From the IMG/VR virus record IMGVR_UViG_3300042885_000900: DNA of 64,000 nt, one strand, 5' to 3'. Below the pieces are notes generated by a model. That model saw only the letters and a list, made by a program, of their open reading frames with translations, had not been told where the DNA came from and did no database searches. Below are positions 2,063 to 61,882 of this stretch, piece by piece. The stretch's first letter is position 1, and the number at the start of each line of letters is the position of its first letter. Both the position numbers and the translations under genes were made by a program. Source of the stretch: a virus. Taxonomy: Duplodnaviria > Heunggongvirae > Uroviricota > Caudoviricetes.

Positions 2063-2078
2063 CCCCCAATCAAGGGGG
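2063..2078. terminator. Intrinsic terminator hairpin (cccccaatcaaggggg) flanked by an A-run and a T-run. Usable on both strands.
   Basis: It lies immediately after the stop of 2086..2412. Similar hairpins lie at 2746-2767, 4453-4471, 22023-22040, 30347-30362, 37548-37565, 40330-40348, 43377-43402 and 61971-61984. Confidence 0.55.
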
Positions 2079-2085
2079 TTAAATT

Positions 2086-2412: not shown

Positions 2413-2414
2413 AA

Positions 2415-2708: not shown

Positions 2709-2771
2709 AATTTTTAAGTTTTTTTATAAAGATACAAATAAAAAACCCCACTGTCAAGGTGGGGGGTTAAA

Positions 2772-3050
2772 TTATTCTGAAATATCTTCAATACCGGCTT
2801 CAGGAAAATTATCTTGGAGATACCTCAACATTAAATCATTTGAGTTTTTCCCAAATATATCCTCTAATTTATCTTCCATATCATAACTTGAGAATATAAA
2901 ACTTTTACCATTTTTCCACCCATAAACTTCCCCATGATTCTTCCAATTTCGAAACTCCCTATGCTCGGGGACATAAATTAAATTTGTTCGGTGATTGATA
3001 TATTTAACGAACGCATCATACATTCTACTTTCTGTTATTAGTATTTTCAT
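2772..3050 (-). CDS. MKIIITE-family paralog (MKILITESR)
   Basis: Conserved N-terminal motif. Terminator at 2746-2767. Confidence 0.65.
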   Translation of the reverse strand: MKILITESRMYDAFVKYINHRTNLIYVPEHREFRNWKNHGEVYGWKNGKSFIFSSYDMEDKLEDIFGKNSNDLMLRYLQDNFPEAGIEDISE

Positions 3051-3051
3051 A

Positions 3052-3387
3052 TTAATAATTTAATTCTTGTATATATAATAATGTACTTAATAAATTGGGT
3101 TGACCGAATTTATCGGCAACATATTCTTTACAAATATCTACCAATTCGGGGATGCCAATACCAAACATATTTTTAGCAGTACCAAAGTCATCACTATTAA
3201 AGACAATAATTTCAGTTTCTGTGTCATAATGAAAAGCAACACGACCATCACCATTCATATATTCAAATAGAACATGGGGTGCTTTCATATTTATCGCTCG
3301 TCTTCCGTGTTTTTCGTAACCTCTGAAAACCGAATCAAAAAATTTAAACACAAGTCGTTTTATTTTATCCATATTATTCATCAACAA
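3052..3387 (-). CDS. Hypothetical protein
   Basis: ORF track. Confidence 0.55.
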   Translation of the reverse strand: MLMNNMDKIKRLVFKFFDSVFRGYEKHGRRAINMKAPHVLFEYMNGDGRVAFHYDTETEIIVFNSDDFGTAKNMFGIGIPELVDICKEYVADKFGQPNLLSTLLYIQELNY

Positions 3388-3736
3388 AGTTATTTATAAT
3401 ATAATCTAATTCAATACCCAAATGTTGGATACCAAGAACTTTTAAAAAATCATATTCGTCAATTTTACGATTTTGTTTTTCGCTTAAAACCAATATACCA
3501 TATTCTTTACCTTGAGGTTGAACATAATAATTATTACCATCAATATGAAACAAATACATTGGACCAAAATTGTTAAGTAACCATCTAAACTCCTCTCTAC
3601 CATCAGAGAACAAGTGTTGACCTTTAGGTCCTAACTCAATCCAATTTGTAATTATCTCAATACGGTCAGACAAATCATATCCCACCACCTTGGTAATTAA
3701 ATCTTTTATTTTATTCTCCGTAATTATAAATTTCAT
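3374..3736 (-). CDS. MKIIITE-family paralog (MKFIITENK)
   Basis: Conserved N-terminal motif. Confidence 0.65.
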   Translation of the reverse strand: MKFIITENKIKDLITKVVGYDLSDRIEIITNWIELGPKGQHLFSDGREEFRWLLNNFGPMYLFHIDGNNYYVQPQGKEYGILVLSEKQNRKIDEYDFLKVLGIQHLGIELDYIINNFVDE

Positions 3737-3862
3737 ATTAATAAATATAACAACATCCCAAAAAAAAAGGGGGGCGGGGGGTTTGAATACGACCGGAGGG
3801 AGTTCGGGTTATGTGAGACATCAATAAAAAACCCCCAACTACTTAAAGCGGGGGTATCAATA

Positions 3863-42583: not shown

Positions 42584-43312
42584 TTATTGTTCTGTAGTTG
42601 GTTTCAACCACAATAGTTTGTTTTCAAAAATGTAATTCTTTAATGTTGGGAAGTAGTATAATGTCTCCAAAGTTTTTAATGTGTCGTGTTTGAAACATTT
42701 TAATAATTCCTCCCGGATTCTTTCCGTTGAAACGACCCCCATTTTAGTTTCATAGTCATAGTTATTGATATAGTAATCCAAAAACTTTAAACTAAAACCT
42801 TTTGTTATTGAGAATCTAATTGCTCTTAAAATACGGAGGGGGTCATCATCAAAAGTTTCTTTACAGGACTTTGGAGTGATTAAAACTCTTCTTTCCAAAT
42901 CAAGTCGTCCACTGAAATAATCAATGATGGTACCATCCTCATCTTTGGCAAGAGCATTTAATGTGAAGTCACGTCTCTCTAAATCATCGTATAGTGTCCC
43001 TGGTTTAACAATTGGTGTTCTTGTTCCGGGAATGTACCCAACTTCTTTACGAGCCATCACAAAGTCAGCAACACCACTATACTTATGGTCTTTTGGGAAC
43101 TTTGCTCTGATAGTAAAACAATCGGCAGTGATTAAGAACAATTCAAACTTCTCATCCTTCAGGTATTGTTCCAACATAGAGAACATAGATTCCGCAGTAT
43201 CAAAGTCCTGCAACAATTTGTCATTAGGAACCGCAACATAATCCACATCTTTAGATTCAAGACCTAAAATCTCATCTCTAACCTTTCCCCCGACTTCGTA
43301 AAACTTAAACAT
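42584..43312 (-). CDS. tRNA nucleotidyltransferase (CCA-adding enzyme) / poly(A) polymerase head-domain protein
   Basis: GGKVRDEILGLESKDVDYVAV matches the GGxVRD...D.D nucleotidyltransferase motif. RRDFTLNALA is also present. ATG start at MFKFYEV, although a GTG at 43321 is possible. Confidence 0.65.
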   Translation of the reverse strand: MFKFYEVGGKVRDEILGLESKDVDYVAVPNDKLLQDFDTAESMFSMLEQYLKDEKFELFLITADCFTIRAKFPKDHKYSGVADFVMARKEVGYIPGTRTPIVKPGTLYDDLERRDFTLNALAKDEDGTIIDYFSGRLDLERRVLITPKSCKETFDDDPLRILRAIRFSITKGFSLKFLDYYINNYDYETKMGVVSTERIREELLKCFKHDTLKTLETLYYFPTLKNYIFENKLLWLKPTTEQ

Positions 43313-43479
43313 ATTTTCCACTTTCTATTATTTTATTCGACAAAGATAATACTATTATTTATATAAACAAAAAAAACCTCAACAAATTTTACTCTGTTGA
43401 GGTTTTTATTATTCCAACCAGTTAAAGAAAGGGGTTGTTGGCTAAATGAGTATATAAATATGCGGTAAAATTAGAAAAA

Positions 43480-43905
43480 TCAATCTTTTTTCAATAATCT
43501 CATAATTAATTTACATAATTGGTCCGATTTATTATCAAATGGCAGATTTTCAAGGTTAAAATATCCACATTCTGTATGTTCTTCTCCATCCTTCGCACTT
43601 TCTAAATCCGGATTTATTGGTTCGTCTGTCTCCATCATAAAAACATACATCAACCCTTTTATTTCCGTACCATCCCGATTATATCTTTTAACAAACCCAA
43701 CTAATTTTAAATCATTATCTAATGTATAGTTAGTCTCTTCTTTGAATTCGCGTTTCACACCATCCATAGGGTGTTCCCCCTTTTCCAAATGACCACAAGG
43801 AATACTCCATTGTCCTGGTAATTCACCTGTAGCGTTTCTTTTACAAAGCAAAACCTCGTCACCACATTTAACTATTACTCCGGAATATCGTTTAACCTCT
43901 TTCAT
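43480..43905 (-). CDS. Nudix hydrolase
   Basis: Nudix box GHLEKGEHPMDGVKREFKEETN. Confidence 0.75.
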   Translation of the reverse strand: MKEVKRYSGVIVKCGDEVLLCKRNATGELPGQWSIPCGHLEKGEHPMDGVKREFKEETNYTLDNDLKLVGFVKRYNRDGTEIKGLMYVFMMETDEPINPDLESAKDGEEHTECGYFNLENLPFDNKSDQLCKLIMRLLKKD

Positions 43906-45664: not shown

Positions 45665-47572
45665 TTATAACACCTCTTCTTTTAATTCTAATTTTGTCTG
45701 TTTCTTATCATCAATGAATGCTTGAACTCTTTTCCGAGCAACTTCCGTATAATCCGGAGATAACTCAATTCCAATCCATCGTCTCTCTAATACTTCTGCC
45801 GCTACAGCTGATGTTCCACTTCCCATAAAGGGGTCAAGAACAATATCATCCTTATATGTAAGTATCTTAATCGCCTTCCCAGGTATATCCATTGAGAATG
45901 TGGCTTTAGTTAATGATTTAGTATCTGCAAAATATTCCCACCTTCCAAACACCAAGTTCATAAACTCTTTCTTGTCCTCATCCTTATAAACCATCTTATT
46001 TTTGATGGTTCCATCTTCCTGAATTACTTTAGTTGGTTCTCCTTCCCATTGGGATTGTCCTTTAAGTAATTTCTTACTCGTTTTCTTATAAGCCAATATG
46101 ATACACTCTTTTGGGTTATAAATATAGGGGCTCGACGCTGACATCCATGAGTTACCACACCACACTAATTGTCCTGATTTTTCAACTAATAATGTTTTAT
46201 TAGGTACTGACACACAATAAACTTTATCATCATAATCAATTGTGGTAACATTTTTTTTCTTTATATAACTTTGTTCTTTGTTGAGGATTTGAATTGTTGT
46301 CATTGGGTAATTAGATTTTATTATTTTACCATTCCAAAGTCTATCTTTCGCAAAATAACTATATAATGAACAAATTCTCCCCGATTCAAATAATAATCTA
46401 AGAATTTGGTCTTTCATTATCTCACTACATACAGAAATTTTCCACAATTCATTGTCTTTAGTAAAAGACCCATCACCATAAAATATCCATAATAATAATA
46501 TTTCTTTCTGTCTTTTAGACATATTAAAAACATAATCAGGTATTGTTCTTAAATTTTTACTTTTTGTATCAAGTAAAAACGACGCCAATTGTTTTGAACA
46601 ACAAAAATATTCGTTTTTTTGTTTTTTATATTCAAAATTAAATGGCAATCTCTCCAACAATTCTTCAATTTCTTTTAAAAATTTTATTTTTGTTTGATAA
46701 ATAGATATTTTGTATATACCTCGTTTAACATCATACGTTAATGAACCATCTGTTAGAAAAATACCTAAAAATCTCATCCAATCATCCGCATCAACAATTA
46801 CCGAATCTTCATTTCTATATATTTTTTTACTTCTTAACCCATACTCTACAGGAGGTATCACAACAGTTTTCACATCCACAACATTATTTAACCCATTATG
46901 ACTTCTAGGTATTGTGAAAACCTCTTGAGTTATCTCATTAAATGGTATAACGTCTATTTTAGAGTTGTCTACTCTAACCATATTATGGTTTTCTGTTATA
47001 GTAAGATTAACCGAACGAGTTTTAATATTTACTAATTTACCTTTAAATGGTTTTTCAATATAATCAAAAGCCTTTTGATACTCAATTTCTTTAGTTGTAG
47101 GATTTAATGTCATAAATAAATCCGTCTTAATATCAACATCCTTAAAAAATTTAAGACCATTATTTGTCATAACTTTAGTTTCATTATCATAACAACCCCA
47201 AGCAGTTTGTCTCACTCGGTGTGGTGAATCCTCAGTTAAATCAACCATCCCGTAAAATTTAAAACCAACTTCCTTCATCTTCATCCAAAATTCAGCGTTG
47301 AATAATATTCTACCTCCTCTTTCTTGAACATTCACTTCTATTGGAACATTGATGGCGATTCTTCCGTCATCCTTTAACACTCTATACGCTTCAGTTAACC
47401 ATTTTGTCGTAAAATCCCAATACTCATCCATTGGAATACTATCATTATACACATCGTATTTGATGTTAACAGAATATGGTGGACTAGTCACCACTAAATC
47501 CACACAACCTTCAGGAAATGTTCCCATAACCTCAACACACTCACCATTTATAATCTTCCCTGTCTCTATCAT
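45665..47572 (-). CDS. Orphan DNA methyltransferase (N6-adenine/N4-cytosine beta class) interrupted by a 348-aa intein carrying a LAGLIDADG endonuclease
   Basis: Extein motifs are DLVVTSPPY (motif IV) and DPFMGSGTS (motif I). The intein starts at CYDNETKVMT and ends at VWCGN followed by S. LAGLIDADG blocks are LGIFLTDGS and LLWIFYGDGS. Confidence 0.75.
   Translation of the reverse strand: MIETGKIINGECVEVMGTFPEGCVDLVVTSPPYSVNIKYDVYNDSIPMDEYWDFTTKWLTEAYRVLKDDGRIAINVPIEVNVQERGGRILFNAEFWMKMKEVGFKFYGMVDLTEDSPHRVRQTAWGCYDNETKVMTNNGLKFFKDVDIKTDLFMTLNPTTKEIEYQKAFDYIEKPFKGKLVNIKTRSVNLTITENHNMVRVDNSKIDVIPFNEITQEVFTIPRSHNGLNNVVDVKTVVIPPVEYGLRSKKIYRNEDSVIVDADDWMRFLGIFLTDGSLTYDVKRGIYKISIYQTKIKFLKEIEELLERLPFNFEYKKQKNEYFCCSKQLASFLLDTKSKNLRTIPDYVFNMSKRQKEILLLWIFYGDGSFTKDNELWKISVCSEIMKDQILRLLFESGRICSLYSYFAKDRLWNGKIIKSNYPMTTIQILNKEQSYIKKKNVTTIDYDDKVYCVSVPNKTLLVEKSGQLVWCGNSWMSASSPYIYNPKECIILAYKKTSKKLLKGQSQWEGEPTKVIQEDGTIKNKMVYKDEDKKEFMNLVFGRWEYFADTKSLTKATFSMDIPGKAIKILTYKDDIVLDPFMGSGTSAVAAEVLERRWIGIELSPDYTEVARKRVQAFIDDKKQTKLELKEEVL
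46151..47194 (-). mobile_element. Intein (Hint domain plus LAGLIDADG homing endonuclease) inside the methyltransferase gene
   Basis: Cys at +1, N-terminal splice junction after ...RQTAWG, C-terminal Asn then Ser. I mapped the boundaries myself by translating both junctions. Confidence 0.65.
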
Positions 47573-47573
47573 A

Positions 47574-47870
47574 TTATTCTGTTAATTGGTATTCCCAACC
47601 ATCTTCTTTTTTTATTGGTGTAATCTCTAAATCTAAAAACACCGCATTCTGTTCTCCCGCATATAACCCTAATATGTTATAATCATAAAACTCTTCAGCC
47701 TCACCATAAGTCATCAGGTCTCTCTCTTGTAGGATGTGTAATATTCTTGGTTTGGAATATAACATTTTCCTTCCAGGGGAACCAAAATCCTCAACAATCC
47801 CAATGATAGCATCCTCTAACCCATCTAATAAAACCGCACCTTCCGCGTACTCATCAATATCAACTAACAT
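47574..47870 (-). CDS. Hypothetical protein
   Basis: ORF track. Confidence 0.5.
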   Translation of the reverse strand: MLVDIDEYAEGAVLLDGLEDAIIGIVEDFGSPGRKMLYSKPRILHILQERDLMTYGEAEEFYDYNILGLYAGEQNAVFLDLEITPIKKEDGWEYQLTE

Positions 47871-52011: not shown

Positions 52012-54279
52012 TTAGGGAATACAGGTGTTTGATTTTACGAAGGTACCTGTAGATAAAGTATATGTAAAAAATCCAACACAATCAGTACCTGAACACGTAG
52101 CATTCGATATTAATATTGTAGAATCAGCAAATGTATAAGTCGTCCCTATTTGTGTACCTCCGGAAGTTATAAAACCATAATTACCATCACTAATCATTGT
52201 TCCACCAGAATAAGCTTTCATTTGTATTTGAACAATGCCCGTACCTGTATTTGGAGTGTTTCTATACCAATTCGCTCGACAATTTAACTGTATTGAGGTA
52301 ACACTTCCACTAAGTTTTAATTGTTTAATATCTACATACACACTTTCGGAACCACCCGTATTTTGATTATCACCACCCCACCATAAATTAGGACCAACAC
52401 GTTTACCTGACGCCAGATTTCCAGTAGTACAAAACCCAACTGGGTTAAAAGTATTCGCATATGTTGTCCCCGTCACATTATTCACATATAAATAAGTAAG
52501 AGTGTCTAAATCTTTCCCACTAGTAATTGGGAATGTATATGTAAAAACAAGATAATCAGCATTAAGTATTATCGGAGCCTTTGTTGGCGTAACCGTTGGC
52601 GTATATGTTGGTGTAGGTGTTTGAGTTGGTGTTTTAGTCGGTGTAAGCGTTTGTGTTGGTGTTTGTGATGGTGGGAGCACATCTTTAATTAAACGAACTG
52701 AAAAACCAACTGTTTTATTAGTATTAATTCTACTAACACTTTGACTACTATTACTCATCTGACGACTCCACGAACTAACAGTATTAGCCGATGATGAAGT
52801 CCACCAATACCCACCATTACGAATGTCAGTAAATACCCCGCTAATACTTCTATTACCTCCTGGAAGAGCAGTAAAACCATAAGTGTTAACAGCACCCGTA
52901 TTTGGAGTGTTCCAATATGTGGTACCAGTTCCTTTCAATATTCCCCCTGATACCGATTCACCACCTAAAAAAGTTGTTAAAGTAGTCCATTCAGCATCTG
53001 TAGGAATATGATAACCTAACGGAGCTAATCCACCATTTGCGGTATTATTAACCGCATACCAATTATATAACATACCATAAGTATTTCCTGTTGTTGTACT
53101 ACCGCTGTAATAACACCAAGCCCCCGTGGTTAATCCTGACCAAATAGCCGGGTCAGTCACTTTTGGAATTACAGTACCATCTCTATAAGTAGGAACATTT
53201 AAATTACACGCCGTCCAAGTTTGAGTTCCAATTGTCACATCATTTAATGAACAAAGATATGGTGAGGGTGCATTTAAATTAGTCGTTAAACAACTAGGAA
53301 CTTGAGACGCACCAGCAATTGTTTTATTAATTTCTGTAACATATACTAAATTGTATGGCGAATTTTTATTAATTATATATAATTTTGTATTTATACCATC
53401 AAGATTAACCGATGTTATGTAAATATTTCCATTCGACTCAAAAATACCATAAGTATTACAAGGAATTGTTAGAACAACATCAACTTCTAAAGTCCCTGTT
53501 AAATAATTCCACTGACTTAAATAACAAATCTCATTAACAGGGTCATTATTAAGTACCAAAAATTTATTAGTTGTTGTTTTATAAAAATCACCAGTAATAG
53601 TTCTACCAGCCGTTAAAGGAAATTTAGTTGTCATAACAGGACTTACACCTGATACATCTATTTCAACAACTTCGTTAGGATTATTGAGTGTATTTACCGC
53701 TAAAATAACTGTGTCCGAAATCGCCGCAAGACCCGCAGAATTACTAAAATTTAATGGAGAGGGGATATTACGATTAAATATCGCACTAAATGATGGTAAA
53801 GTTATATTATATTCGTTAAAACTAATACCAGTTGGTTCCCAAAGTTTATTTGAGGTATGAGCAATATCATTACCTCCAGAATATTCCGCCGGCATTGTTA
53901 ATAATGTTGAAGTGTTTGCAGAAACATTATAATAATAAACTTTATCTTGATTATCATTATATAGTACAGCACAAGTCGGTACAACAGGATTACTCGTTGG
54001 TGTTGGTGTTTTTGTCGGTGTTATACTTGGCGTTGGAGTTTGAGTTTTAGTGATTGTTGGTGTTGGTGTTTGAGTTGGTGTAACTGTTGGAGTTAATGTT
54101 TTTGTTGGTGTAACTGTTGGAGTTTGCGATGGCGATGCATTTGGTGTTTGAGTTGGTGTTGGGGTACCGATTGGTAATAAAACACCATTAATTCTAATGG
54201 TGTTTGGTATAGGATTATTGTTGGCTTTTTTCATAGAAGCCAATAATACATTATCAAATTTTTTAAGTAATTGTGCCAT
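52012..54279 (-). CDS. Fibre/receptor-binding-like protein with two Pro/Thr linkers, a beta-rich middle region shared with 59423..61882, and an internal Fibrobacter succinogenes major paralogous (FISUMP) domain
   Basis: PT linkers (TPTQTPTPTITKTQTPTPS...). FISUMP motifs GMLYNWYA, GYHIPTDAEWTTL, GFTALPGG, GFSVRLIKD. Confidence 0.75.
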   Translation of the reverse strand: MAQLLKKFDNVLLASMKKANNNPIPNTIRINGVLLPIGTPTPTQTPNASPSQTPTVTPTKTLTPTVTPTQTPTPTITKTQTPTPSITPTKTPTPTSNPVVPTCAVLYNDNQDKVYYYNVSANTSTLLTMPAEYSGGNDIAHTSNKLWEPTGISFNEYNITLPSFSAIFNRNIPSPLNFSNSAGLAAISDTVILAVNTLNNPNEVVEIDVSGVSPVMTTKFPLTAGRTITGDFYKTTTNKFLVLNNDPVNEICYLSQWNYLTGTLEVDVVLTIPCNTYGIFESNGNIYITSVNLDGINTKLYIINKNSPYNLVYVTEINKTIAGASQVPSCLTTNLNAPSPYLCSLNDVTIGTQTWTACNLNVPTYRDGTVIPKVTDPAIWSGLTTGAWCYYSGSTTTGNTYGMLYNWYAVNNTANGGLAPLGYHIPTDAEWTTLTTFLGGESVSGGILKGTGTTYWNTPNTGAVNTYGFTALPGGNRSISGVFTDIRNGGYWWTSSSANTVSSWSRQMSNSSQSVSRINTNKTVGFSVRLIKDVLPPSQTPTQTLTPTKTPTQTPTPTYTPTVTPTKAPIILNADYLVFTYTFPITSGKDLDTLTYLYVNNVTGTTYANTFNPVGFCTTGNLASGKRVGPNLWWGGDNQNTGGSESVYVDIKQLKLSGSVTSIQLNCRANWYRNTPNTGTGIVQIQMKAYSGGTMISDGNYGFITSGGTQIGTTYTFADSTILISNATCSGTDCVGFFTYTLSTGTFVKSNTCIP

Positions 54280-54290: not shown

Positions 54291-57200
54291 TTACAGTACC
54301 TCAACCCAACTATTATCCGGACAGAAATATATTATGTCGTTTGTTGCGTCAGTACAATAACCAATGATTCTAACATTATTACCAGTAGCCGGTGGTGATG
54401 TCGAACTAAACTCACCCGCAGTTGTTGATACATATAATATAGAACCTAAAGTCACACTAGTAAATGATGTTGTACTAAATTTAGCATAACCTCTTAACAA
54501 CATTCCACTCGCAATTGTTGTCCCTAACGCCATACCTAATAATCCTGTTGACCCAGAAACTGTTGTAGCATTTGCCAATGTCCAAGTACCTCCAGTACTA
54601 TAATAATAAACTGACCCGGCAGTTAATGTTGCTCCAATACCAAAATAAACAACTTCTCCGGCACCACCATTAGATGTTGGAACTGTAAATATTTTATTGT
54701 TTGTAATATTAATATTATTGACAAATGTTGTACACCCTCTATCTGCAGTAATGTTAGAACCTACAATAGTTGCAAAAGTAATACCTGATGGTATTCGATT
54801 ACTACTACCACCAAGAATTGACGAAAAACAACTTCCTATACAGTTATTATAACCACCCGCAATAGTTGACCAATTACCATATATACGATTCGACACTCCA
54901 CCTGCAATAGTTGAATAACTTCCCACAATTTTTTGAAATTCAGGATTACCATTAACATAAGTAAATCCACCACCACCAATTGTTGAACAATTTCCACTAA
55001 CAGAAACATAACATCCACCACCAATGGTTGAAGCATTACCGGAAACCCTATTAAAACGACCTCCACTAACTGTTGAATAAGTAGCACCTAATAAAATCTC
55101 ATTACCACAACCACCACCAATAAATGAATCATTCCCTCTAGCGGTATTACCTTGACCACCCCCGATTGTCGCAAAACTTCCAGAAGCAGTATTACTATAA
55201 CCATACCACCCACCACACTGGAAGCGTTGACCACCCCCTCCAATAGTTGAAGCCATCCCTGACGCTTTGTTATAACCACCTCCACCAATTGTTGAGGTAC
55301 TACCGGAAGCAATGTTTCCACCACCACCACCTACTGTTGAAACATAATTAGACACTGTGTTGATTCTACCTCCACCAATGGTTGAATAGTTACCCGTCGC
55401 ACAGTTTTTACATCCACCACCAATTGTTGAATTTACACCATAAGCAGTATTTCCAACACCACCACCAATAAATGAATTACTTCCACCAAAACTAGATTTT
55501 GTTAGATTTCTAACTAATGGTTGATTTCCAATTGCAAACACATCAACCGAAGCTGTTGCTCCGGTAACATTTACTGTGGTGAATCCTGCGGAGTAAGTTG
55601 ATGCCGTTACCACAACATTTCTTGAACAAGTATTATTATCAAAAGTTAATAATAAATCATTAGTTACAAAACAACTAGTTAAATTACCAGTAAACCTTAA
55701 CGAACAATTACCAAGGACTGTAGATGTTTCTATTTTTGGAGAATTACCCACCATATTTAAAACACCTCCGTTAATACCTCCTTGATACCCACAGACAATA
55801 TTCACATGACCACCACCTACAAAAGCAAATTTGGTAGCCGATTTATTATTATTACCTGAAACTATCCCTGAACCATAACCTGTTGCGTAATTACCACAAC
55901 CACCTAAAATAGCCGCTCTAATACCATTGGTCTTATTAGAAAGACCACCACCAATAACAGCATCTTCATGAACTGTTATATTATTACATCTACCACCACC
56001 TATAAACGATGCCGCACTTGTATTACAATTGTAAGAACCTCCAACAACAACTGATTGATTTGAAGACACTGTATTACTAAGTCCACCTCCGAGAAATCCA
56101 CCACCTGAACCACAACTAAGAATCTTACCACAATATCCACCGGCAATTGTTGTTGCAACACCATAGTTTCTATTACAATTTCCTCCACCAACTACAGAAC
56201 AGTTACTTCCTGAACTTACACAATTATTTTTCCCACCACCAATTGTTGAATAAGTACCAATAGCATTATTACATCGACCCCCACTAACTGTTGAAATAAA
56301 ACCAAAAGCAGTATTTGTAAAACCACCACCAATGAATGAACGATTACCAGAAGCAGTATTACCTTGACCACCACCAATAAACGATTGTTCACTTATATTA
56401 CAATTGTATTGACCTCCAACAATAACTGAACTATATGAAGATACTGTATTACAATAACCACCACCTATAAACCCACCTACTCCATTACAATTAAGTATAC
56501 TATTAGTATTACCACCGGCGATAGTTGATGAGTGACCATAATTTTTATTTTGGTATCCACCACCAACAACAGAATATTCTTTTTTTATACAGTTTAATTT
56601 ACCTCCACCGATAAATGAATTGTTATTATTATCAATAATGTTGGAACAACCACCACCTATGGTTCCATAAGATGTAGTGACACCACTTATTATATTACAT
56701 TTACCACCACTGATGGTTGAACTACAATGGTATTGACCAAAAATTTTATTAGAAAGACCACCACCAATAACTGAATTTTGTATTTGACGACCATATATAG
56801 TATTTGATAACCCACCACCTATAGTATTGTCATATAAATAACCATTATTACCACTATTAGATAGACCCATTTTGTTTAAATGACCACCACTTATAGTATT
56901 ACGACCACCTATATACAAAATATTAGACAACATTGTATTATCACTACCACCACCAATAAAAGATTCACAATTTGAACTTATAGTATTCGAACAACCACCG
57001 CCAATAAATGAACGACTAGCACCTGATAAAATATTATTACAACCACCCACGATTGTTCCATGAGGAGATAAAATATCTACTATATTAAGTTGACCACCTA
57101 AAGATGCTGAACAATTTCCATTTGATTGATTACTAACACCACATCTAACCGATGAGTATGTACCTACACCTAATACGATTACCGGAGGTGTTGGGCTAAA

Positions 57201-59081
57201 ACCACTCGTTCCTGATGAACCTGCCGCACCTGTTGCTCCCGATGTTCCTGACGAACCACTAGTACCTGATGTACCTCTTGTTCCTGAAGAACCACTAGTT
57301 CCTGAAGAACCACTTGTTCCTGAAGAACCACTTGTTCCGGATGTACCTCTTGTTCCCGATGTACCACTAGAACCATTTGCACCCGATGTTCCACTAGAAC
57401 CTGTTGCTCCCGATGTTCCTGACGAACCACTAGTACCTGATGTACCTCTTGTTCCTGACGAACCACTTGTTCCGGATGTACCTCTTGTTCCCGATGTACC
57501 ACTAGAACCATTTGCACCCGATGTTCCACTAGAACCATTTGCACCCGATGTTCCACTAGAACCCGTCGCTCCCGATGTTCCTGACGAACCACTTGTTCCG
57601 GATGTACCTCTTGTTCCTGAAGAACCACTTGTTCCGGATGTACCTCTTGTTCCCGATGTACCACTAGAACCATTTGCTCCCGATGTTCCACTAGAACCCG
57701 TCGCTCCCGATGTTCCTGATGAACCACTTGTTCCCGAAGAACCACTAACCCCACTAGCACCAGATGTCCCTGACGAACCACTAGTACCTGAAGTACCTCT
57801 CGTTCCTGAAGTTCCACTAGAACCACTAACACCACTAGTCCCCGAAGACCCACTATTTCCACTAGTACCTGAAGTTCCTCTCGTTCCTGAAGTCCCACTA
57901 GAACCACTAATACCACTTGTTCCTGAAGAACCACTACCACCAGTGCTTCCGGATGTTGTAACCAATAAACCATTAGAACCCACACACACCAAACATCCTG
58001 ATGAACTAGTGAAACTACATACAGATAAATCATTAACAAATGTGGTACATGCTCTGTTTGCGGTTATATTACTACCAATAATATTGGTATGTGTAAATGA
58101 GGAAGATATTGTATTACCTATACCACCTAATATTGATGAACAATTACCATTTGCACAATTACAACAACCTCCACCAATTACAGAATAACAACTGGTTATA
58201 GTATTTAGATAACCACCACCAATTGATGAATAAGATGCACTAATACAAAGTTTATTACCATAACCACCCGATATAGTTCCTAGTCCAGATAAAACACGAT
58301 TAGAATAACCACCACCAATGAATGACCTAGTACCTGAAACTATATTATCATGACCTCCGCCAATAAATGAGGAAGATACTAACTCACAAATTATATTAGA
58401 TAAACCACCACCAATTGATGAGGTAGTTCCTGATACGCGATTACTAAAACCACCACCAATAAATGAAAAACATTCTGATACGGTATTTCCACTACCTCCT
58501 AATGCTGCCGAAAAATTTCCTGATGCGGTATTTCCAACACCACATCTAACAGATGAGTTAATACCACCACCTAATATTATTACCGGAGGATTAGGACTTG
58601 TTCCACTAGTACCAGCCGAACCCGTTATACCTGAAGACCCCGATGAACCATTAATTCCACTAGTACCTGAAGAACCACCGGCACCTGATGTCCCCGATGT
58701 CCCTGATGTCCCACTATTACCCGATGTTCCTGATGTTCCCGATGTCCCACTATCACCTGATGAACCACTAGGTCCTGAAGTACCATTAACACCTGAAGTA
58801 CCATTAGCACCTGAAGTACCATTAGCACCAGATGTTCCCGATGTACCATTAATAAAACCTGTTATTGTAACTATACCACCCGTTGAGTCGTATAGTTCCA
58901 ATGTTGTTGCAGCAGAGAAATAAGTTCCTCCTGTAATATATGGGAATATATTTAATACTTGACCTATTTCGGCCTTATATGATGACCCTTGAGGACTTTG
59001 CGTCGTATCATAAGGTTTAACAATATGTATTAAGTCATTAACAGTTACGCCAGTCGCTAAAAGTCTATCGGTTAATCTCAT
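54291..59081 (-). CDS. Giant fibre-like protein, 1596 aa. It has collagen-like G-X-Y tracts, long beta-helix-like IGGGxxN repeats (about 14-aa period) and a C-terminal globular domain.
   Basis: GTSGTSGSSGTRGTSG... tracts, and more than 50 copies of S(F/I)IGGG(x)xN. Confidence 0.8.
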   Translation of the reverse strand: MRLTDRLLATGVTVNDLIHIVKPYDTTQSPQGSSYKAEIGQVLNIFPYITGGTYFSAATTLELYDSTGGIVTITGFINGTSGTSGANGTSGANGTSGVNGTSGPSGSSGDSGTSGTSGTSGNSGTSGTSGTSGAGGSSGTSGINGSSGSSGITGSAGTSGTSPNPPVIILGGGINSSVRCGVGNTASGNFSAALGGSGNTVSECFSFIGGGFSNRVSGTTSSIGGGLSNIICELVSSSFIGGGHDNIVSGTRSFIGGGYSNRVLSGLGTISGGYGNKLCISASYSSIGGGYLNTITSCYSVIGGGCCNCANGNCSSILGGIGNTISSSFTHTNIIGSNITANRACTTFVNDLSVCSFTSSSGCLVCVGSNGLLVTTSGSTGGSGSSGTSGISGSSGTSGTRGTSGTSGNSGSSGTSGVSGSSGTSGTRGTSGTSGSSGTSGASGVSGSSGTSGSSGTSGATGSSGTSGANGSSGTSGTRGTSGTSGSSGTRGTSGTSGSSGTSGATGSSGTSGANGSSGTSGANGSSGTSGTRGTSGTSGSSGTRGTSGTSGSSGTSGATGSSGTSGANGSSGTSGTRGTSGTSGSSGTSGSSGTSGSSGTRGTSGTSGSSGTSGATGAAGSSGTSGFSPTPPVIVLGVGTYSSVRCGVSNQSNGNCSASLGGQLNIVDILSPHGTIVGGCNNILSGASRSFIGGGCSNTISSNCESFIGGGSDNTMLSNILYIGGRNTISGGHLNKMGLSNSGNNGYLYDNTIGGGLSNTIYGRQIQNSVIGGGLSNKIFGQYHCSSTISGGKCNIISGVTTSYGTIGGGCSNIIDNNNNSFIGGGKLNCIKKEYSVVGGGYQNKNYGHSSTIAGGNTNSILNCNGVGGFIGGGYCNTVSSYSSVIVGGQYNCNISEQSFIGGGQGNTASGNRSFIGGGFTNTAFGFISTVSGGRCNNAIGTYSTIGGGKNNCVSSGSNCSVVGGGNCNRNYGVATTIAGGYCGKILSCGSGGGFLGGGLSNTVSSNQSVVVGGSYNCNTSAASFIGGGRCNNITVHEDAVIGGGLSNKTNGIRAAILGGCGNYATGYGSGIVSGNNNKSATKFAFVGGGHVNIVCGYQGGINGGVLNMVGNSPKIETSTVLGNCSLRFTGNLTSCFVTNDLLLTFDNNTCSRNVVVTASTYSAGFTTVNVTGATASVDVFAIGNQPLVRNLTKSSFGGSNSFIGGGVGNTAYGVNSTIGGGCKNCATGNYSTIGGGRINTVSNYVSTVGGGGGNIASGSTSTIGGGGYNKASGMASTIGGGGQRFQCGGWYGYSNTASGSFATIGGGQGNTARGNDSFIGGGCGNEILLGATYSTVSGGRFNRVSGNASTIGGGCYVSVSGNCSTIGGGGFTYVNGNPEFQKIVGSYSTIAGGVSNRIYGNWSTIAGGYNNCIGSCFSSILGGSSNRIPSGITFATIVGSNITADRGCTTFVNNINITNNKIFTVPTSNGGAGEVVYFGIGATLTAGSVYYYSTGGTWTLANATTVSGSTGLLGMALGTTIASGMLLRGYAKFSTTSFTSVTLGSILYVSTTAGEFSSTSPPATGNNVRIIGYCTDATNDIIYFCPDNSWVEVL
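57180..57960 (-). repeat. Collagen-like G-X-Y (GTSGSSGTRG...) coding tandem repeats, about 230 residues
   Basis: Near-perfect 18- and 27-nt tandem repeats are visible in the DNA. A second shorter tract lies at 58600-58862. Confidence 0.7.
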
Positions 59082-59422: not shown

Positions 59423-61882
59423 TTAATCTTTTATTAATCTTACTGAGAAACCATATATTTTATTGTAACCATATCTATTAGCAACACTGGTATTAGCAGC
59501 CAAATATAGAAGCCAAGCAAAATCACTATCAACTTCTGTTGAACTCCAAAACCCACCATTGTTTCTAATATTATTAAATCCTCCAAAGTTTGAACGCCAA
59601 CCTCCAGGTAATCCTGTAAAACCGCTAGAGTTAGAGGCTCCTGTATTGGGACTTAACCAGTGTACTGTACCTGTTTCTTTTAATTTACCACCCGCAACAC
59701 TATTTCCACCTAAATAAGTGGTTAAAGTTGTCCATTCTGTATCAGTTGGAATGTGATATCCTGATGGTGCCAATTGTTTTCTTTGACCTACATCAGTTTT
59801 TGAGGCCTCATTCCAAATTCCCATCACAGCATACCAATTATATAACTTACCATATGTGTCTCCCGTTGTTGTACTACCGCTGTAATAACACCAAGCACCT
59901 GTTGTTAATGTCGCCCACTGGCTTGTTCCTGTGATTTGTGGAATTAATGTACCATCTCTATAAGTAGGAACATTTAAATTACACGCCGCCCAAGTTTGAG
60001 TTCCAATTGTTACATCATTCAATGAACAAAGATATGATGAGGAAACATTTAAATTAGTTAATAAACAACTAGGTATTTGAGACGCTCCTGAAATAACTTT
60101 TGAAACACTATTAACAGATGTTATATTATATGGATAATTTTTACCAATCATATATAGATTTGTGGTTATACCATCAAGGTTAACCGATGTTATATAGATA
60201 TTACCACTATCCTCGAAAATACCATATGTCGCACAACTATTATTCGGTAATAATAATTCAACATCAACTTCTAAAGTTCCTGTTAAATAATTCCATTGAC
60301 TTAAATAACATTTATCAGTAAAAGCATCAGTATTAAGTACCAAAAATTTATAAGCGAGTGTTCTATAAAAATCTCCAGTGATATATCTACCAACTATTAA
60401 AGGAAATTTAGTTGTCATAACAGGACTTACACCTGATATATCTATTTCAACAACTTCGTTAGGGCTATTAAAAGTATTTACCGCTAAAATAACTGTGTCC
60501 GAAATCGCCGCAAGACCCGCAGAATTACTAAAATTTAATGGAGAGGGGATATTACGATTAAATATCGCACTAAATGATGGTAAAGTTATATTATATTCGT
60601 TAAAACTAAGACCAATTGGTTCCCAAAGTTTATTTGAGGTATGAGCAATATCATTACCACCAGAATATTCTGCAGGCATTGTTAATAATGTTGAAGTATT
60701 TGTCGAAACATTATATGACCAAACTTTATCTTGATTATCATTATATATTACAGCACAAGTCGCTATAACAGGACAAGATTCAATATCAGTAAAATTAATT
60801 ATTGAATCAATAACTCCCAAAGTGGTATGAACAACATATCTACCAGGATATGTATATCCAGGTGTTGGTCCTAAATCAGTATCTAAAATAAATTTAGTCG
60901 TTCCAAGATATATCGTGTTATTAAAATTATATAATTGAACCCCAATACCAATATTTACAAATGTTTTAAAATTAAAACCATTTGGGTCACCATTTAAATT
61001 CACATAATAACTTTCCCATAAACATTTAGCCTCGTAATCCGTTGTTGAATTATTAATATTATGGGTTGTCTCATTTTGAGTAACAGATGTTGAAAAATAA
61101 GTATATATCGATGGTGTTGCCGGTTTTGTTGATGAAGGTGTCATTGTCATTGTTGGAGTCATCGTCATTGTTGGAGTTATTGTAGGTGTTTGAGTTGGAG
61201 TTTGGGAAGGTGACGCACCAGGTGTTGAGGTCATAGTAGGTGTTATAGTAGGTGTAGGTGTCATGGTAGGAGTTTGAGTTGGCGTTGGAGTTTTAGATAC
61301 TTCGGCAGGGTCAGTTAAAGTACATACCGTTATTGCCGTATAATCAAGCCAAAAATCTGTTGTTGTTGCCGTATATAACCCGGCAGGTAAATTCTGAATT
61401 GCCGGTGATATACTACCTTTATTATCTACACCCCCATTCCACCATACAGTTTTATACGGTGGTGTACCACCACTTATTGTAACCGACGCCTTACCATCAA
61501 TAGCTCCAGGGTATGATGGGTCTCTTGTATCATTTGGATTACAAGCAACCCCCATTGGGAAAATGGTTATTACATTACATTCATTTGATAGAGTATATGC
61601 TGTTATTACTGGTGATGGCGGAGGAAAACAACTAACGGAGTCATCACTACCAATACAAGTAACACAATCATCATAGTTTGTTAATATCGCATCACTTCCA
61701 TTATATATTTTTGAATTACTTGGGATAGGTTCATCAATCACATATCCACAAGCACTAAATTCAGGTGTTATTATAGAATAAACCTGATTAAGATTAGGTG
61801 TATCACCAACATAATTACTTAACCCAAAATAATTATCTGAATTATTAGATTTAGTACAACAAGTTTGAAAATAATAAGTCAT
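59423..61882 (-). CDS. Fibre/receptor-binding-like protein with a PT linker and a C-terminal FISUMP domain. Its C-terminal 445 aa are paralogous to the middle of 52012..54279.
   Basis: GKLYNWYA ... GYHIPTDTEWTTL ... GFTGLPGG ... GFSVRLIKD. Confidence 0.75.
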   Translation of the reverse strand: MTYYFQTCCTKSNNSDNYFGLSNYVGDTPNLNQVYSIITPEFSACGYVIDEPIPSNSKIYNGSDAILTNYDDCVTCIGSDDSVSCFPPPSPVITAYTLSNECNVITIFPMGVACNPNDTRDPSYPGAIDGKASVTISGGTPPYKTVWWNGGVDNKGSISPAIQNLPAGLYTATTTDFWLDYTAITVCTLTDPAEVSKTPTPTQTPTMTPTPTITPTMTSTPGASPSQTPTQTPTITPTMTMTPTMTMTPSSTKPATPSIYTYFSTSVTQNETTHNINNSTTDYEAKCLWESYYVNLNGDPNGFNFKTFVNIGIGVQLYNFNNTIYLGTTKFILDTDLGPTPGYTYPGRYVVHTTLGVIDSIINFTDIESCPVIATCAVIYNDNQDKVWSYNVSTNTSTLLTMPAEYSGGNDIAHTSNKLWEPIGLSFNEYNITLPSFSAIFNRNIPSPLNFSNSAGLAAISDTVILAVNTFNSPNEVVEIDISGVSPVMTTKFPLIVGRYITGDFYRTLAYKFLVLNTDAFTDKCYLSQWNYLTGTLEVDVELLLPNNSCATYGIFEDSGNIYITSVNLDGITTNLYMIGKNYPYNITSVNSVSKVISGASQIPSCLLTNLNVSSSYLCSLNDVTIGTQTWAACNLNVPTYRDGTLIPQITGTSQWATLTTGAWCYYSGSTTTGDTYGKLYNWYAVMGIWNEASKTDVGQRKQLAPSGYHIPTDTEWTTLTTYLGGNSVAGGKLKETGTVHWLSPNTGASNSSGFTGLPGGWRSNFGGFNNIRNNGGFWSSTEVDSDFAWLLYLAANTSVANRYGYNKIYGFSVRLIKD

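What the first reader, a model, noticed from the sequence alone, without database searches (positions are those of the whole stretch)
46151..47194. An intein with a LAGLIDADG homing endonuclease splits an orphan DNA methyltransferase.
The methyltransferase, with DPPY-like motif IV (SPPY) and FxGxG motif I, is interrupted after ...RQTAWG by a 348-aa insertion. The insertion begins with Cys (CYDNETKV...), contains two LAGLIDADG-like blocks (LGIFLTDGSL and LLWIFYGDGSF) and ends ...VWCGN with Ser at +1. These are canonical intein features, except that the penultimate residue is Gly rather than His. No cognate restriction enzyme is nearby, so the spliced methyltransferase probably protects the phage genome from host restriction. 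The intein is a selfish element worth recording because it is active-site adjacent and because of its unusual G-N terminus.
Basis: partly seen in the sequence, partly recalled or inferred. Interest (0 to 1): 0.6.

Follow-up and report, generated by a model that had tools for sequence, protein, structure and literature searches.

The report
Mobile intein in phage DNA methyltransferase
A self-splicing, self-copying protein insert (an intein carrying a homing endonuclease) interrupts a DNA methyltransferase gene of an uncultured giant phage; sister phages carry the same gene without it. It is a well-supported but ordinary example of a known kind of selfish element.

Summary
ORF 45665..47572 (-) encodes a 635-aa precursor. 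Residues 127-474 (window 46151..47194) are a 348-aa intein set in a beta-class N6/N4 DNA methyltransferase at ...RQTAWG|C...N|SWMSASSPY. A 322-kb viral contig, syntenic at 91-94% nt identity, lacks exactly these 1044 bp. Its 287-aa product differs from the predicted spliced protein at one residue.

The AlphaFold model (pLDDT 96.6) matches endonuclease-containing inteins (TliVMA, PI-PkoII, PI-SceI, PI-PfuI) and then I-DmoI.

The Gly-Asn end is not an oddity. The intein belongs to a family of at least 6000 50%-identity clusters in many host proteins. In 60 aligned members Cys1, block-B Thr/His, the penultimate Gly and the final Asn are invariant. Block F position 4 is Cys in 59/60 and +1 is Ser in 57/59. 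The Bethlehem RDF intein, a relative with the same Cys1, F:4 Cys and Gly-Asn|Ser residues, splices well in published work.

In all ten comparable pairs of intein-bearing alleles the inteins are at least as similar as the exteins, and more so in nine (100% versus 95.7% in the closest non-identical pair). The endonuclease domain has dN/dS about 0.06-0.11. This points to recent homing.

Inteins in phage N6_N4 methylases, apparently at the homologous site, are already published. Verdict: new member of a known kind.

The parts
45665..47572 (-). Precursor gene: 635-aa DNA methyltransferase with intein, stop codon at 45665..45667
   Evidence: An identical protein (P0001) is seen on 16 contigs, the longest 312.8 kb.
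47195..47572 (-). N-extein, aa 1-126, ending ...RQTAWG
   Evidence: With the C-extein it gives a continuous PF01555 match.
47474..47488 (-). Methyltransferase motif IV, TSPPY
   Evidence: Read directly from the sequence. It aligns to the SPPF motif of M.PvuII and the SPPY motif of TTHA0409.
46151..47194 (-). Intein, 348 aa, from Cys1 to Asn348
   Evidence: Empty-site allele in L014. AF2 model with pLDDT 96.6. Foldseek top hits are endonuclease-containing inteins. Family alignment.
47156..47194 (-). Splicing block A, CYDNETKVMTNNG (Cys1 nucleophile)
   Evidence: C1, T10 and G13 are invariant in 60 sequences.
46976..47008 (-). Splicing block B, NLTITENHNMV (Thr67, His70; Met72 at B:12)
   Evidence: T67 and H70 are invariant. 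B:12 is M, L or I and never W.
46310..46858 (-). LAGLIDADG homing endonuclease domain (about intein residues 113-295)
   Evidence: PF14528 scores 25.2 bits, above its 22.5-bit cut-off. Foldseek matches I-DmoI and I-SceI. dN/dS is 0.06-0.11.
46742..46780 (-). LAGLIDADG motif 1, WMRFLGIFLTDGS (acidic Asp149)
   Evidence: The acidic position is D or E in 59/60; G150 is invariant.
46466..46501 (-). LAGLIDADG motif 2, ILLLWIFYGDGS (acidic Asp241)
   Evidence: The acidic position is D in 58/60 and E in 1/60.
46178..46225 (-). Splicing block F, KVYCVSVPNKTLLVEK (Cys327 at F:4; no His at F:13)
   Evidence: F:4 is Cys in 59/60. In a wider sample it is Cys in 116 of the 127 copies where the block could be located.
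46148..46171 (-). Splicing block G plus the +1 residue, QLVWCGN|S (Trp345, Cys346, Gly347, Asn348, Ser+1)
   Evidence: G347 and N348 are invariant. W is 55/60, C is 55/60 and +1 Ser is 57/59.
45668..46150 (-). C-extein, aa 475-635, starting SWMSASSPY
45809..45835 (-). Methyltransferase motif I, DPFMGSGTS (AdoMet binding)
   Evidence: It aligns to motif I of CcrM, TTHA0409 and M.PvuII.
46044..47217 (.). Tract 100% identical to viral contig L009: the intein plus 23 nt of N-extein and 107 nt of C-extein. The N-extein is about 9% diverged (35 of 378 nt), with the nearest mismatch at 47218.

Best explanation
The 1044-bp insert is a bifunctional intein. Its splicing (Hint) domain is split by a double-motif LAGLIDADG homing endonuclease. 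It sits in frame in a conserved loop of a beta-class N6/N4 DNA methyltransferase, in what appears to be an uncultured jumbo phage.

Likely mechanism (inferred). The 635-aa precursor is translated. Cys1 makes the N-terminal thioester, helped by block-B Thr67 and His70. Ser+1 takes over the N-extein. Asn348 cyclises and releases the intein. The result is a 287-aa methyltransferase that differs at one residue from the protein encoded by intein-free sister phages. Block F position 4 is Cys327 rather than the usual Asp, and there is no His at F:13 or at the penultimate position. These are family-wide traits, so Asn cyclisation must be assisted in some other way.

The excised LAGLIDADG enzyme probably cuts intein-free alleles at ...GCTTGGGGT|TCTTGGATG... 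during co-infection. Repair then copies the intein in. This would explain the presence/absence polymorphism and why the inteins are younger than their host genes.

Shown here: the boundaries, the fold, the empty site, the family conservation and the population pattern. Inferred: splicing itself, endonuclease activity, and the specificity and role of the methyltransferase.
For: Boundaries and empty site. L014 (IMG/VR contig, 322 kb) aligns to the window at 91-94% nt identity. The alignment breaks at window 47191/46147. Its 287-aa product reads ...RQTAWGSWMSASSPY... and differs from the predicted spliced protein at one residue. Of the 86 junction matches found in the fetched loci and the window, 75 are intein-free and 11 intein-bearing, with an almost invariant junction sequence; one of the 75 is a spurious out-of-frame match, and L001-L004 and the window are copies of one allele.

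Fold. AF2 pLDDT is 96.6 and pTM 0.93. Foldseek against PDB puts TliVMA, PI-PkoII, PhoVMA, PI-SceI and PI-PfuI inteins on top (E 1e-15 to 1e-10), then I-DmoI. Profile hits include PI-PkoII at 1.3e-17 and VMA inteins at 1e-15.

Family. Homologous inserts with CYDxxTEvLT...RNGKxxWCGN|S occur in class III RNR, MCM, ThyX, RpoB, epimerases, glycosyltransferases and at other methyltransferase sites. The exhaustive search found 6048 cluster representatives at E<=1e-3. Invariant residues are C1, T67, H70, G347 and N348.

Splicing competence by homology. The Bethlehem RDF intein has C1, TANH, VWC at block F and HLTGN|S. It is homologous to the family (hhalign probability 96.4%, E 1.3e-9). It splices efficiently, and G316H slows it (PMC5050341).

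Mobility and selection. Intein versus extein nt identity to the window is 100.0 versus 95.7 (L008/L009), 98.5 versus 92.5 (L011) and 90.8 versus 80.8 (L010). dS is 0.057 for the intein and 0.40 for the exteins. dN/dS of the endonuclease domain is 0.06-0.11. The identical tract ends 24 nt from the N junction. The nearest extein relatives of L010 and L011 are intein-free alleles.

Host gene. PF01555 scores 120 bits against a 26.7-bit cut-off. Full-length alignments to TTHA0409, M.PvuII and CcrM.
Against: Splicing and DNA cleavage were not and cannot be tested here.

The Pfam Intein_splicing and TIGR intein N- and C-terminal models score below their curated cut-offs (23.4 versus 35.8 bits; 16.9-18.5 versus 24.5; 13.4 versus 15.6).

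The penultimate His and the F:13 His, which usually assist Asn cyclisation, are absent.

Phage genomes are mosaic. Some non-intein stretches near the gene are also only about 2.5% diverged from L011. The excess identity of the intein could therefore partly reflect ordinary recombination rather than endonuclease-driven homing.

The genome is called a phage only from IMG/VR membership and PHROG hits. No hallmark capsid or terminase gene was identified in the parts of the window that were scanned.
Confidence: 0.9

Rival explanations
1. Same intein, different chemistry. The family splices by a class-3-like or hybrid route. Block-F Cys327 would form a branched thioester with the N-extein, either directly or after relay from Cys1, before transfer to Ser+1.
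For: F:4 is Cys in 59/60 family members, and in 116/127 of a wider sample. F:4 Cys is the hallmark nucleophile of class 3 inteins (PMC2807308, PMC4031507). In the 60-sequence alignment +1 is Ser in 57/59 (in the wider sample Ser or Thr in about 86%, Cys in about 14%), as in class 3. The closest solved Hint domain by profile is the AceL NrdHF class 3 intein (E 9e-9). That intein also has Met at B:12 and lacks both the F:13 and G:6 His (PMC7891396).
Against: Cys1 is invariant (60/60, and 184/186 in the wider sample), whereas class 3 inteins typically lack an N-terminal nucleophile. B:12 is never Trp, and G:5 is Cys or Ser rather than Thr. The related Bethlehem RDF and other mycobacteriophage inteins of this type were treated as class 1 (PMC5050341). 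Grafting a WCT triplet onto a class 1 intein did not produce class 3 splicing (PMC7664689).
Confidence: 0.15
2. The intein splices, but its homing endonuclease is dead. It would be inherited vertically or moved only by general phage recombination.
For: Cleavage was not tested. Phage mosaicism can move segments without an endonuclease. Extein and intein identities roughly co-vary across the deeper homologues.
Against: Both catalytic acidic residues are conserved, D or E in 59/60 at each motif. The endonuclease domain has dN/dS of 0.06-0.11. The intein is 1044/1044 nt identical between genomes whose exteins differ by 4.3%, with a breakpoint 24 nt from the junction. Presence and absence are interleaved on the extein similarity ranking.
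Confidence: 0.2
3. The intein is splicing-defective because it lacks the penultimate His. The methyltransferase gene would then be effectively inactivated in this phage.
For: Gly replaces the canonical His, and there is no F:13 His. Generic intein models score below their cut-offs. The Chlamydomonas ClpP intein, also with penultimate Gly, is a reported case of poor splicing (from my own recollection of the work cited as ref. 75 in PMC4031507; not read here).
Against: Gly347 is invariant across the family. Both exteins remain under strong purifying selection (dN/dS 0.04-0.09), which would not be expected for a dead gene. A homologous Gly-penultimate intein splices faster than its G->H mutant (PMC5050341).
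Confidence: 0.06
4. The insert is not an intein. It would be a permanent accessory domain of the methyltransferase, for example a LAGLIDADG-derived DNA-binding module.
For: LAGLIDADG domains are sometimes domesticated as DNA binders. A non-intein LAGLIDADG insert exists in actinophage methylases (PMC9957025).
Against: A complete Hint domain flanks the endonuclease. All splicing residues sit at the exact boundaries. The same insert occurs in unrelated host proteins. Near-identical phages carry the gene without it.
Confidence: 0.01

Closest known systems
Actinophage / mycobacteriophage N6_N4_Mtase inteins (DNMT-1/2 of Kelley et al. 2016, PMC5050341; Dorothy_75-type methylase intein of Gosselin et al. 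2023, PMC9957025), e.g. Mycobacterium phage Atcoo gp55, annotated 'DNA methylase + intein'
   Same: The host family is the same (PF01555). The insertion site appears homologous: IAWLYG|C in Atcoo against TAWG|C here, in a BLASTP alignment that runs through the junction and the whole intein. Both have a LAGLIDADG endonuclease, Cys1, F:4 Cys, a Gly-Asn end and Ser+1. The population pattern is also the same: identical inteins in diverged exteins and a patchy distribution.
   Different: Identity is only about 20%. The host is an uncultured AT-rich jumbo-phage lineage, not an actinophage. The methyltransferase is a compact 287-aa SPPY enzyme rather than the larger DPPY protein of Atcoo. G:5 is Cys here and Thr in Atcoo.
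Mycobacteriophage Bethlehem RDF (metallophosphoesterase) intein
   Same: It is homologous in the splicing domain (hhalign probability 96.4%). The catalytic layout is the same: Cys1, T-x-x-H, F:4 Cys, penultimate Gly, Asn, Ser+1. Published experiments show it splices, and a Gly->His change slows it.
   Different: The host protein and insertion site differ. G:4-G:5 is Leu-Thr there and Trp-Cys here.
AceL NrdHF class 3 split intein (PDB 6zgq; PMC7891396)
   Same: It is the closest solved Hint domain by sequence profile (E 9e-9). Block B is S-P-N-H-R-M against T-E-N-H-N-M here. Both have F:4 Cys, no F:13 or G:6 His, and Ser+1.
   Different: AceL starts with Ala, is naturally split, has no endonuclease, has Thr at G:5 and is proven class 3. 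The window intein has an invariant Cys1 and is contiguous.
Archaeal endonuclease-containing inteins with solved structures (TliVMA/PhoVMA 7qsu/7qst, PI-PkoII 2cw7, PI-PfuI 1dq3) and yeast PI-SceI
   Same: The overall two-domain architecture is the same: a Hint domain with a double LAGLIDADG domain inserted in it. They are the top Foldseek hits, with TM about 0.6.
   Different: Sequence identity is 10-15%. From my own knowledge, not tested here, these inteins generally carry a penultimate His and the usual Asp at F:4; this intein has Gly and Cys. No extra DNA-recognition or stirrup domain was evident from the secondary-structure summary.

Membership tests
Intein (Hint-domain protein-splicing element, class 1) | N-terminal nucleophile (Cys/Ser/Thr) as first residue | tested here: met
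   Cys127 of the precursor is intein Cys1. It is invariant in 60/60 family members.
Intein (Hint-domain protein-splicing element, class 1) | Block B T-x-x-H | tested here: met
   T67-E-N-H70. Both residues are invariant.
Intein (Hint-domain protein-splicing element, class 1) | C-terminal Asn followed by Ser/Thr/Cys at +1 | tested here: met
   Asn348|Ser. Asn is 60/60. +1 is Ser 57, Thr 1, Cys 1.
Intein (Hint-domain protein-splicing element, class 1) | Penultimate His (G:6). Common, but not obligatory. | tested here: not met
   Gly347, invariant in the family. Published inteins lacking this His do splice (PMC5050341, PMC4031507).
Intein (Hint-domain protein-splicing element, class 1) | Hint fold | tested here: met
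   AF2 pLDDT 96.6. Foldseek top 16 hits are inteins, E 1.6e-15 to 1.9e-8. The generic sequence models (PF14890, TIGR01445, TIGR01443) are below their cut-offs.
Intein (Hint-domain protein-splicing element, class 1) | In-frame insertion whose precise removal restores a contiguous host protein; intein-free alleles exist | tested here: met
   The L014 allele lacks exactly 46151..47194. Its protein differs from the predicted spliced product at one residue. 75 of the 86 junction matches are intein-free (one of them spurious).
Intein (Hint-domain protein-splicing element, class 1) | Protein splicing demonstrated | not testable with these tools
   Needs expression and a gel or mass spectrometry. There is only indirect support from the homologous Bethlehem RDF intein.
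LAGLIDADG homing endonuclease (single-chain, two motifs) | Two LAGLIDADG helices, each ending in a catalytic acidic residue | tested here: met
   LGIFLTD149G and LWIFYGD241G. The acidic residue is conserved in 59/60 at each motif. PF14528 scores above its cut-off.
LAGLIDADG homing endonuclease (single-chain, two motifs) | LAGLIDADG fold | tested here: met
   Foldseek matches to I-DmoI (target-normalised TM about 0.65, rmsd about 4.3 A) and I-SceI. Profile hits to I-DmoI at 6.5e-7 and I-Tsp061I at 1.1e-6.
LAGLIDADG homing endonuclease (single-chain, two motifs) | Site-specific cleavage of the intein-free allele, and homing | tested here: inconclusive
   Cleavage is not testable. The population signature fits homing: intein identity at least equals extein identity in all ten comparable pairs and exceeds it in nine, there is a 100%-identical tract with a breakpoint 24 nt from the junction, and the distribution is patchy. 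Ordinary recombination is not excluded.
Class 3 inteins | No N-terminal nucleophile is required or present | tested here: not met
   Cys1 is invariant.
Class 3 inteins | WCT triplet (Trp B:12, Cys F:4, Thr G:5) | tested here: not met
   The triplet here is Met72, Cys327, Cys346. Only the F:4 Cys is present. The proven class 3 AceL NrdHF intein has an MCT variant.
Class 3 inteins | Block-F branched thioester intermediate | not testable with these tools
   Needs mutagenesis and mass spectrometry.
Beta-class N6/N4 DNA methyltransferase (Pfam PF01555) | Motif IV (D/N/S)PP(Y/F) N-terminal to motif I FxGxG, and a model score above the cut-off | tested here: met
   SPPY lies at aa 30-33 and FMGSG at aa 582-586 of the precursor. 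The spliced sequence scores 120.4 bits against a 26.7-bit cut-off over profile 1-220/221. Full-length alignments to TTHA0409 and M.PvuII.
Beta-class N6/N4 DNA methyltransferase (Pfam PF01555) | Methyl transfer to DNA; base (m4C or m6A) and sequence specificity | not testable with these tools
   SPPY is the variant typical of N4-cytosine enzymes (from my own knowledge of the family). The best profile hit in PDB is a chain deposited as DNA cytosine-N4 methyltransferase (8s9n, E 2.9e-26). CcrM and other m6A enzymes score similarly with the single sequence.
Orphan (solitary) phage methyltransferase | No cognate restriction endonuclease in the neighbourhood | tested here: inconclusive
   None of the 10 flanking proteins hit a PADLOC restriction-modification model. 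None has a nuclease Pfam domain on record. Restriction enzymes are often undetectable by sequence.

The most novel reading that the evidence does not exclude
This intein represents a very large, mostly uncharacterised clade: at least 6000 50%-identity clusters in phages, archaea and candidate phyla. Its catalytic signature is a hybrid of class 1 and class 3. It has an invariant Cys1 and also a near-invariant block-F Cys at F:4. It has an invariant penultimate Gly, no F:13 His, Trp-Cys at G:4-G:5, and Ser (less often Thr or Cys) at +1. Its nearest solved relative is a proven class 3 intein. The clade may therefore splice by a two-thiol relay (Cys1 to Cys F:4 to Ser+1), or be the class 1 stock from which AceL-type class 3 inteins arose. 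It may also cyclise Asn by a mechanism that needs no histidine.
Probability: 0.15. Interest if true: 0.55.

Novelty: new member of a known kind. Interest (0 to 1): 0.33.

Why it matters
For annotation, the gene should be recorded as a methyltransferase precursor with an intein, not as a 635-aa 'DNA modification methylase'. The mature enzyme is 287 aa.

For biology, the window and its sister contigs give a clean natural snapshot of an intein that is polymorphic within one lineage of uncultured 200-320-kb phages. The empty site is intact. One pair of intein copies is identical at all 1044 nt while the host genes differ by 4.3%, and a breakpoint lies 24 nt from the junction. This extends to freshwater-type metagenomic jumbo phages the pattern described for actinophage methylase inteins.

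For intein enzymology, the copy is one more member of a large family in which penultimate Gly and block-F Cys are the rule. That makes the family a reasonable target for mechanistic work and for mining compact Ser+1 inteins as tools.

None of this overturns current knowledge.

Tried and rejected
1. Megablast of the gene against 50,697 GenBank phage records found nothing. The phage has no cultured close relative. tblastn gave only distant intein or methyltransferase hits.

2. I looked for a second intein in the window with phmmer on all ORFs of at least 100 aa and a C-terminal motif scan. None was found.

3. I looked for a restriction enzyme or defence partner among 10 neighbours with PADLOC. 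There was no restriction-modification hit, only a NUDIX protein matching candidate PDC-S07.

4. I looked for phage hallmark genes in 20 of the larger or neighbouring ORFs with PHROGs and Pfam. Most had no hit. The hits were collagen repeats, Fib_succ_major domains, tRNA nucleotidyltransferase, NUDIX, DUF3310 and a PG-binding domain. There are no tRNA genes.

5. I considered a group I intron or a free-standing endonuclease gene. This was rejected because the reading frame is continuous and a Hint domain flanks the endonuclease.

6. I considered class 3 membership. This was rejected as a classification because Cys1 is present and there is no Trp at B:12 or Thr at G:5. It is kept as a mechanistic possibility.

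7. I tried to read Tori & Perler 2011 (PMC3133030) on WCT inteins that start with Ser or Cys. The paper is not held.

8. I could not measure distances between Cys1, Cys327 and Cys346, or from the insertion site to the methyltransferase pocket. The structure tool returns no coordinates.
Full report
OBSERVATION. The minus strand carries one uninterrupted ORF, 45665..47572, of 635 aa. It starts CYDNETKV and ends LVWCGN. It is preceded by ...PHRVRQTAWG and followed by SWMSASSPY. The cited motifs are all present: TSPPY, DPFMGSGTS, LGIFLTDGS and LLWIFYGDGS. With the insert removed, the 287-aa product matches Pfam N6_N4_Mtase continuously (profile 1-220 of 221, 120 bits against a 26.7-bit cut-off). 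The precursor matches the same model in two pieces.

THE EMPTY SITE. A scan of IMG/VR with the protein returned 80 viral loci. Contig L014 is 322,477 bp. It is syntenic with the window at 91-94% nucleotide identity on both sides, and the alignment breaks at window 47191/46147. Its gene is 864 bp. The 287-aa product reads ...RQTAWGSWMSASSPY... and differs from the predicted spliced protein at one residue, with 70 mostly synonymous nucleotide differences. A search for the junction across the fetched loci and the window gave 86 matches: 75 intein-free and 11 intein-bearing. One of the 75 is a spurious out-of-frame match, and five of the 11 are copies of the window's own allele. The junction DNA is almost invariant (...AC-N-GCTTGGGGT|TCTTGGATG...). 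This is the strongest single piece of evidence. The 1044 bp are a discrete element with exactly the boundaries proposed.

WHAT THE INSERT IS. Generic sequence models are weak. LAGLIDADG_3 passes its cut-off (25.2 against 22.5 bits). Intein_splicing (23.4 against 35.8) and the TIGR intein N- and C-terminal models do not. Homology and structure settle the question.

- The protein search found the same insert in about 100 proteins. Some are methyltransferases with 33-100% extein identity and the insert at the same site. Others are unrelated hosts: class III ribonucleotide reductase, MCM, ThyX, RpoB, epimerases and glycosyltransferases. Others again are N6_N4 methyltransferases with the insert at different sites, including inside motif IV (T|SPPY) and motif I (FVG|SGTT). 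All share CYDxxTEvLT at the start and RNGKxxWCGN|S at the end.
- An AlphaFold model built on 60 of these sequences has pLDDT 96.6 and pTM 0.93.
- Its best PDB matches are all endonuclease-containing inteins: TliVMA, PI-PkoII, PhoVMA, PI-SceI and PI-PfuI, at E 1.6e-15 to 1e-10. LAGLIDADG enzymes such as I-DmoI follow (target-normalised TM about 0.65), then mini-inteins.
- A profile search of PDB sequences agrees.

The insert is therefore a Hint splicing domain interrupted by a two-motif LAGLIDADG endonuclease.

THE GLY-ASN END. Within this family it is the rule.

- In the 60-sequence alignment C1, T67, H70 (block B T-x-x-H), G347 and N348 are invariant. Block F position 4 is Cys in 59/60. G:4-G:5 is Trp-Cys in 55/60. 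The +1 residue is Ser in 57/59. B:12 is Met, Leu or Ile and never Trp. The position equivalent to F:13 is never His.
- An exhaustive HMMER search of 1.84 billion cluster representatives found 6048 proteins at E<=1e-3 and 2919 at E<=1e-10. Many carry several copies.
- In 139 new representatives the end is Gly-Asn in 167 of 183 copies. The first residue is Cys in 184 of 186. F:4 is Cys in 116 of the 127 copies where the block could be located.

Published work already covers this. Kelley et al. 2016 (PMC5050341) reported that the penultimate His is poorly conserved in mycobacteriophage inteins. They showed that the Bethlehem RDF intein, with penultimate Gly, splices efficiently, and that G316H slows it. 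I translated that protein. It has Cys1, T-A-N-H, V-W-C at block F and H-L-T-G-N|S. It is homologous to the present family (hhalign probability 96.4%, E 1.3e-9). The Gly-Asn end is therefore not evidence of decay.

LIKELY MECHANISM. This section is inferred. Cys1 forms the thioester with help from Thr67 and His70. Ser+1 attacks it. Asn348 cyclises. The ester then rearranges to a peptide bond, giving the 287-aa enzyme. What replaces the two usual histidines in Asn cyclisation is unknown.

One feature deserves a note. F:4 is usually Asp in class 1 inteins and is the obligate Cys nucleophile in class 3 (PMC2807308, PMC4031507). The closest solved Hint domain by profile is the AceL NrdHF class 3 split intein (E 9e-9; its block B is SPNHRM). 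That intein also has Met at B:12, Cys at F:4, no F:13 or G:6 His, and Ser+1 (PMC7891396). The window intein fails the class 3 definition, because Cys1 is invariant and it has neither Trp B:12 nor Thr G:5. I file it as class 1. A class-3-like or relay use of Cys327 remains open as a minority possibility.

MOBILITY.

- Both LAGLIDADG acidic residues are conserved, D or E in 59/60 at each motif.
- Between the window and L011, synonymous divergence is 0.057 in the intein and 0.40 in the exteins. Against L010 it is 0.47 and 1.16. dN/dS of the endonuclease domain is 0.06-0.11.
- In all ten comparable pairs of intein-bearing alleles, intein nucleotide identity is at least equal to extein identity, and it is higher in nine. 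The values against the window are 100.0% against 95.7% (L008/L009), 98.5% against 92.5% (L011) and 90.8% against 80.8% (L010). The nearest extein relatives of L010 and L011 are intein-free alleles.
- Against L009 the window is identical from 46044 to 47217. That tract is the intein plus 23 nt upstream and 107 nt downstream. The N-extein as a whole is about 9% diverged (35 of 378 nt), and the nearest mismatch is at 47218, 24 nt from the junction.
- Intein G+C is 26.2%, against 37% for the exteins. That is the 3rd percentile of equal-sized windows.

These patterns are what homing with short co-conversion tracts would produce. They mirror what Gosselin et al. 2023 (PMC9957025) described for actinophage methylase inteins. 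One caveat applies. Phage genomes are mosaic, and some non-intein stretches nearby are also only about 2.5% diverged. General recombination could therefore contribute.

HOST GENE AND GENOME. The spliced protein is a beta-class enzyme, with motif IV before motif I. It aligns along its full length to TTHA0409 and M.PvuII, and over its conserved N- and C-terminal motifs to CcrM. The SPPY form of motif IV is typical of N4-cytosine enzymes (from my own knowledge of the family). The best PDB profile hit is deposited as a cytosine-N4 methyltransferase (8s9n, E 2.9e-26). Specificity remains open.

By alignment, the insertion lies in the conserved loop between the motif VIII strand and the E-x-I-L strand. 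I could not measure its distance to the catalytic pocket.

None of ten flanking proteins hit a restriction-modification model. Neighbours hit phage families: tRNA nucleotidyltransferase, NUDIX, DUF3310 and a PG-binding endolysin-like domain. The identical protein occurs on contigs up to 312.8 kb. Close alleles lie on IMG/VR contigs of 208-322 kb. 'Orphan methyltransferase of a jumbo phage' is therefore reasonable. It is not proven, and the anti-restriction role is inference.

COMPARISON WITH WHAT IS KNOWN. Inteins in phage N6_N4 methylases are published: DNMT-1/2 in Kelley 2016, and the Dorothy_75 family in Gosselin 2023. Mycobacterium phage Atcoo gp55 is annotated 'DNA methylase + intein'. 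It aligns with the window protein through the N-extein, the junction (IAWLYG|C against TAWG|C) and the entire intein, and ends FITGN|S. The insertion site therefore appears homologous.

The window element differs in four ways. Its host lineage is uncultured, AT-rich and very large. Identity to Atcoo is only about 20%. The methyltransferase is a compact SPPY enzyme. G:5 is Cys rather than Thr. It is a new member of a known kind.

VERDICT. The finding is correct and well supported. It is of modest interest. Its main value is correct annotation, a clean natural presence/absence polymorphism with signs of recent homing, and a pointer to a very large intein family with a Cys1 / F:4 Cys / Gly-Asn signature that has been little studied mechanistically.

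Noticed in passing
window 47574..47870 (-), the 98-aa gene immediately upstream of the methyltransferase: This is a local divergence hot spot. It shows 22-33% nucleotide mismatches against contig L011 in 47600..47799, while neighbouring genes are 0-12% diverged. The protein matches only phrog_13182, of unknown function. Contig L056 (309 kb) shares just this gene plus the N-extein with the window at 92% identity, plus a 187-nt stretch at 85% just upstream. That suggests a recombination module boundary.
   Followed up: partly
proteins P0063, P0077, P0078, P0079, P0067, P0081: The same intein family is inserted at other sites of N6_N4 methyltransferases. These include directly before the catalytic SPPY (..VVT|C...N|SPPY) and inside AdoMet motif I (DPFVG|C...N|SGTT). 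In these six proteins the next residue is always Ser. This enzyme family is a multi-site intein target.
   Followed up: partly
proteins P0122-P0259 from the exhaustive search: Many large proteins of 1000-3300 aa carry two to eight matched stretches of this intein family, for example P0197 (2602 aa, 8 stretches) and P0144 (3308 aa, 6). Their host proteins and organisms were not examined.
   Followed up: no
window 54291..59081 (-), 52012..54279 (-), 59423..61882 (-): There is a 1596-aa protein with collagen triple-helix repeats (7 stretches, E 2e-37). It is flanked by two proteins with C-terminal Fib_succ_major domains, 755 and 819 aa. They are possibly fibre or host-recognition proteins. The 1596-aa protein also contains two chance matches to the intein C-terminal motif pattern, with no intein.
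   Followed up: no
window 43480..43905 (-): A NUDIX hydrolase (phrog_1198) also matches the PADLOC candidate defence model PDC-S07 (E 1.2e-12). It sits next to a tRNA nucleotidyltransferase gene at 42584..43321. No tRNA gene is present anywhere in the 64 kb.
   Followed up: no
L006 (Prevotella phage Lak-A1, MK250016), locus about 1748..3850: The 540-kb Lak megaphage has an intein of the same family (...IKEKFG|CYDEQTEV...GVWCGN|SLRWY) in an unannotated protein. The same QVKEKFG|...|SLR host site recurs in several metagenomic proteins (P0086, P0087, P0091, P0093, P0094, P0098, P0101). The host protein was not identified.
   Followed up: no
window junction codon 46148..46150 compared with L014 and other loci: The +1 Ser is encoded by TCA or TCT in all intein-bearing alleles. 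In a subset of intein-free alleles, including the closest one (L014), it is AGT. These are two different Ser codon families at the first base pairs of the presumed endonuclease target. Whether AGT alleles resist cleavage was not examined.
   Followed up: no
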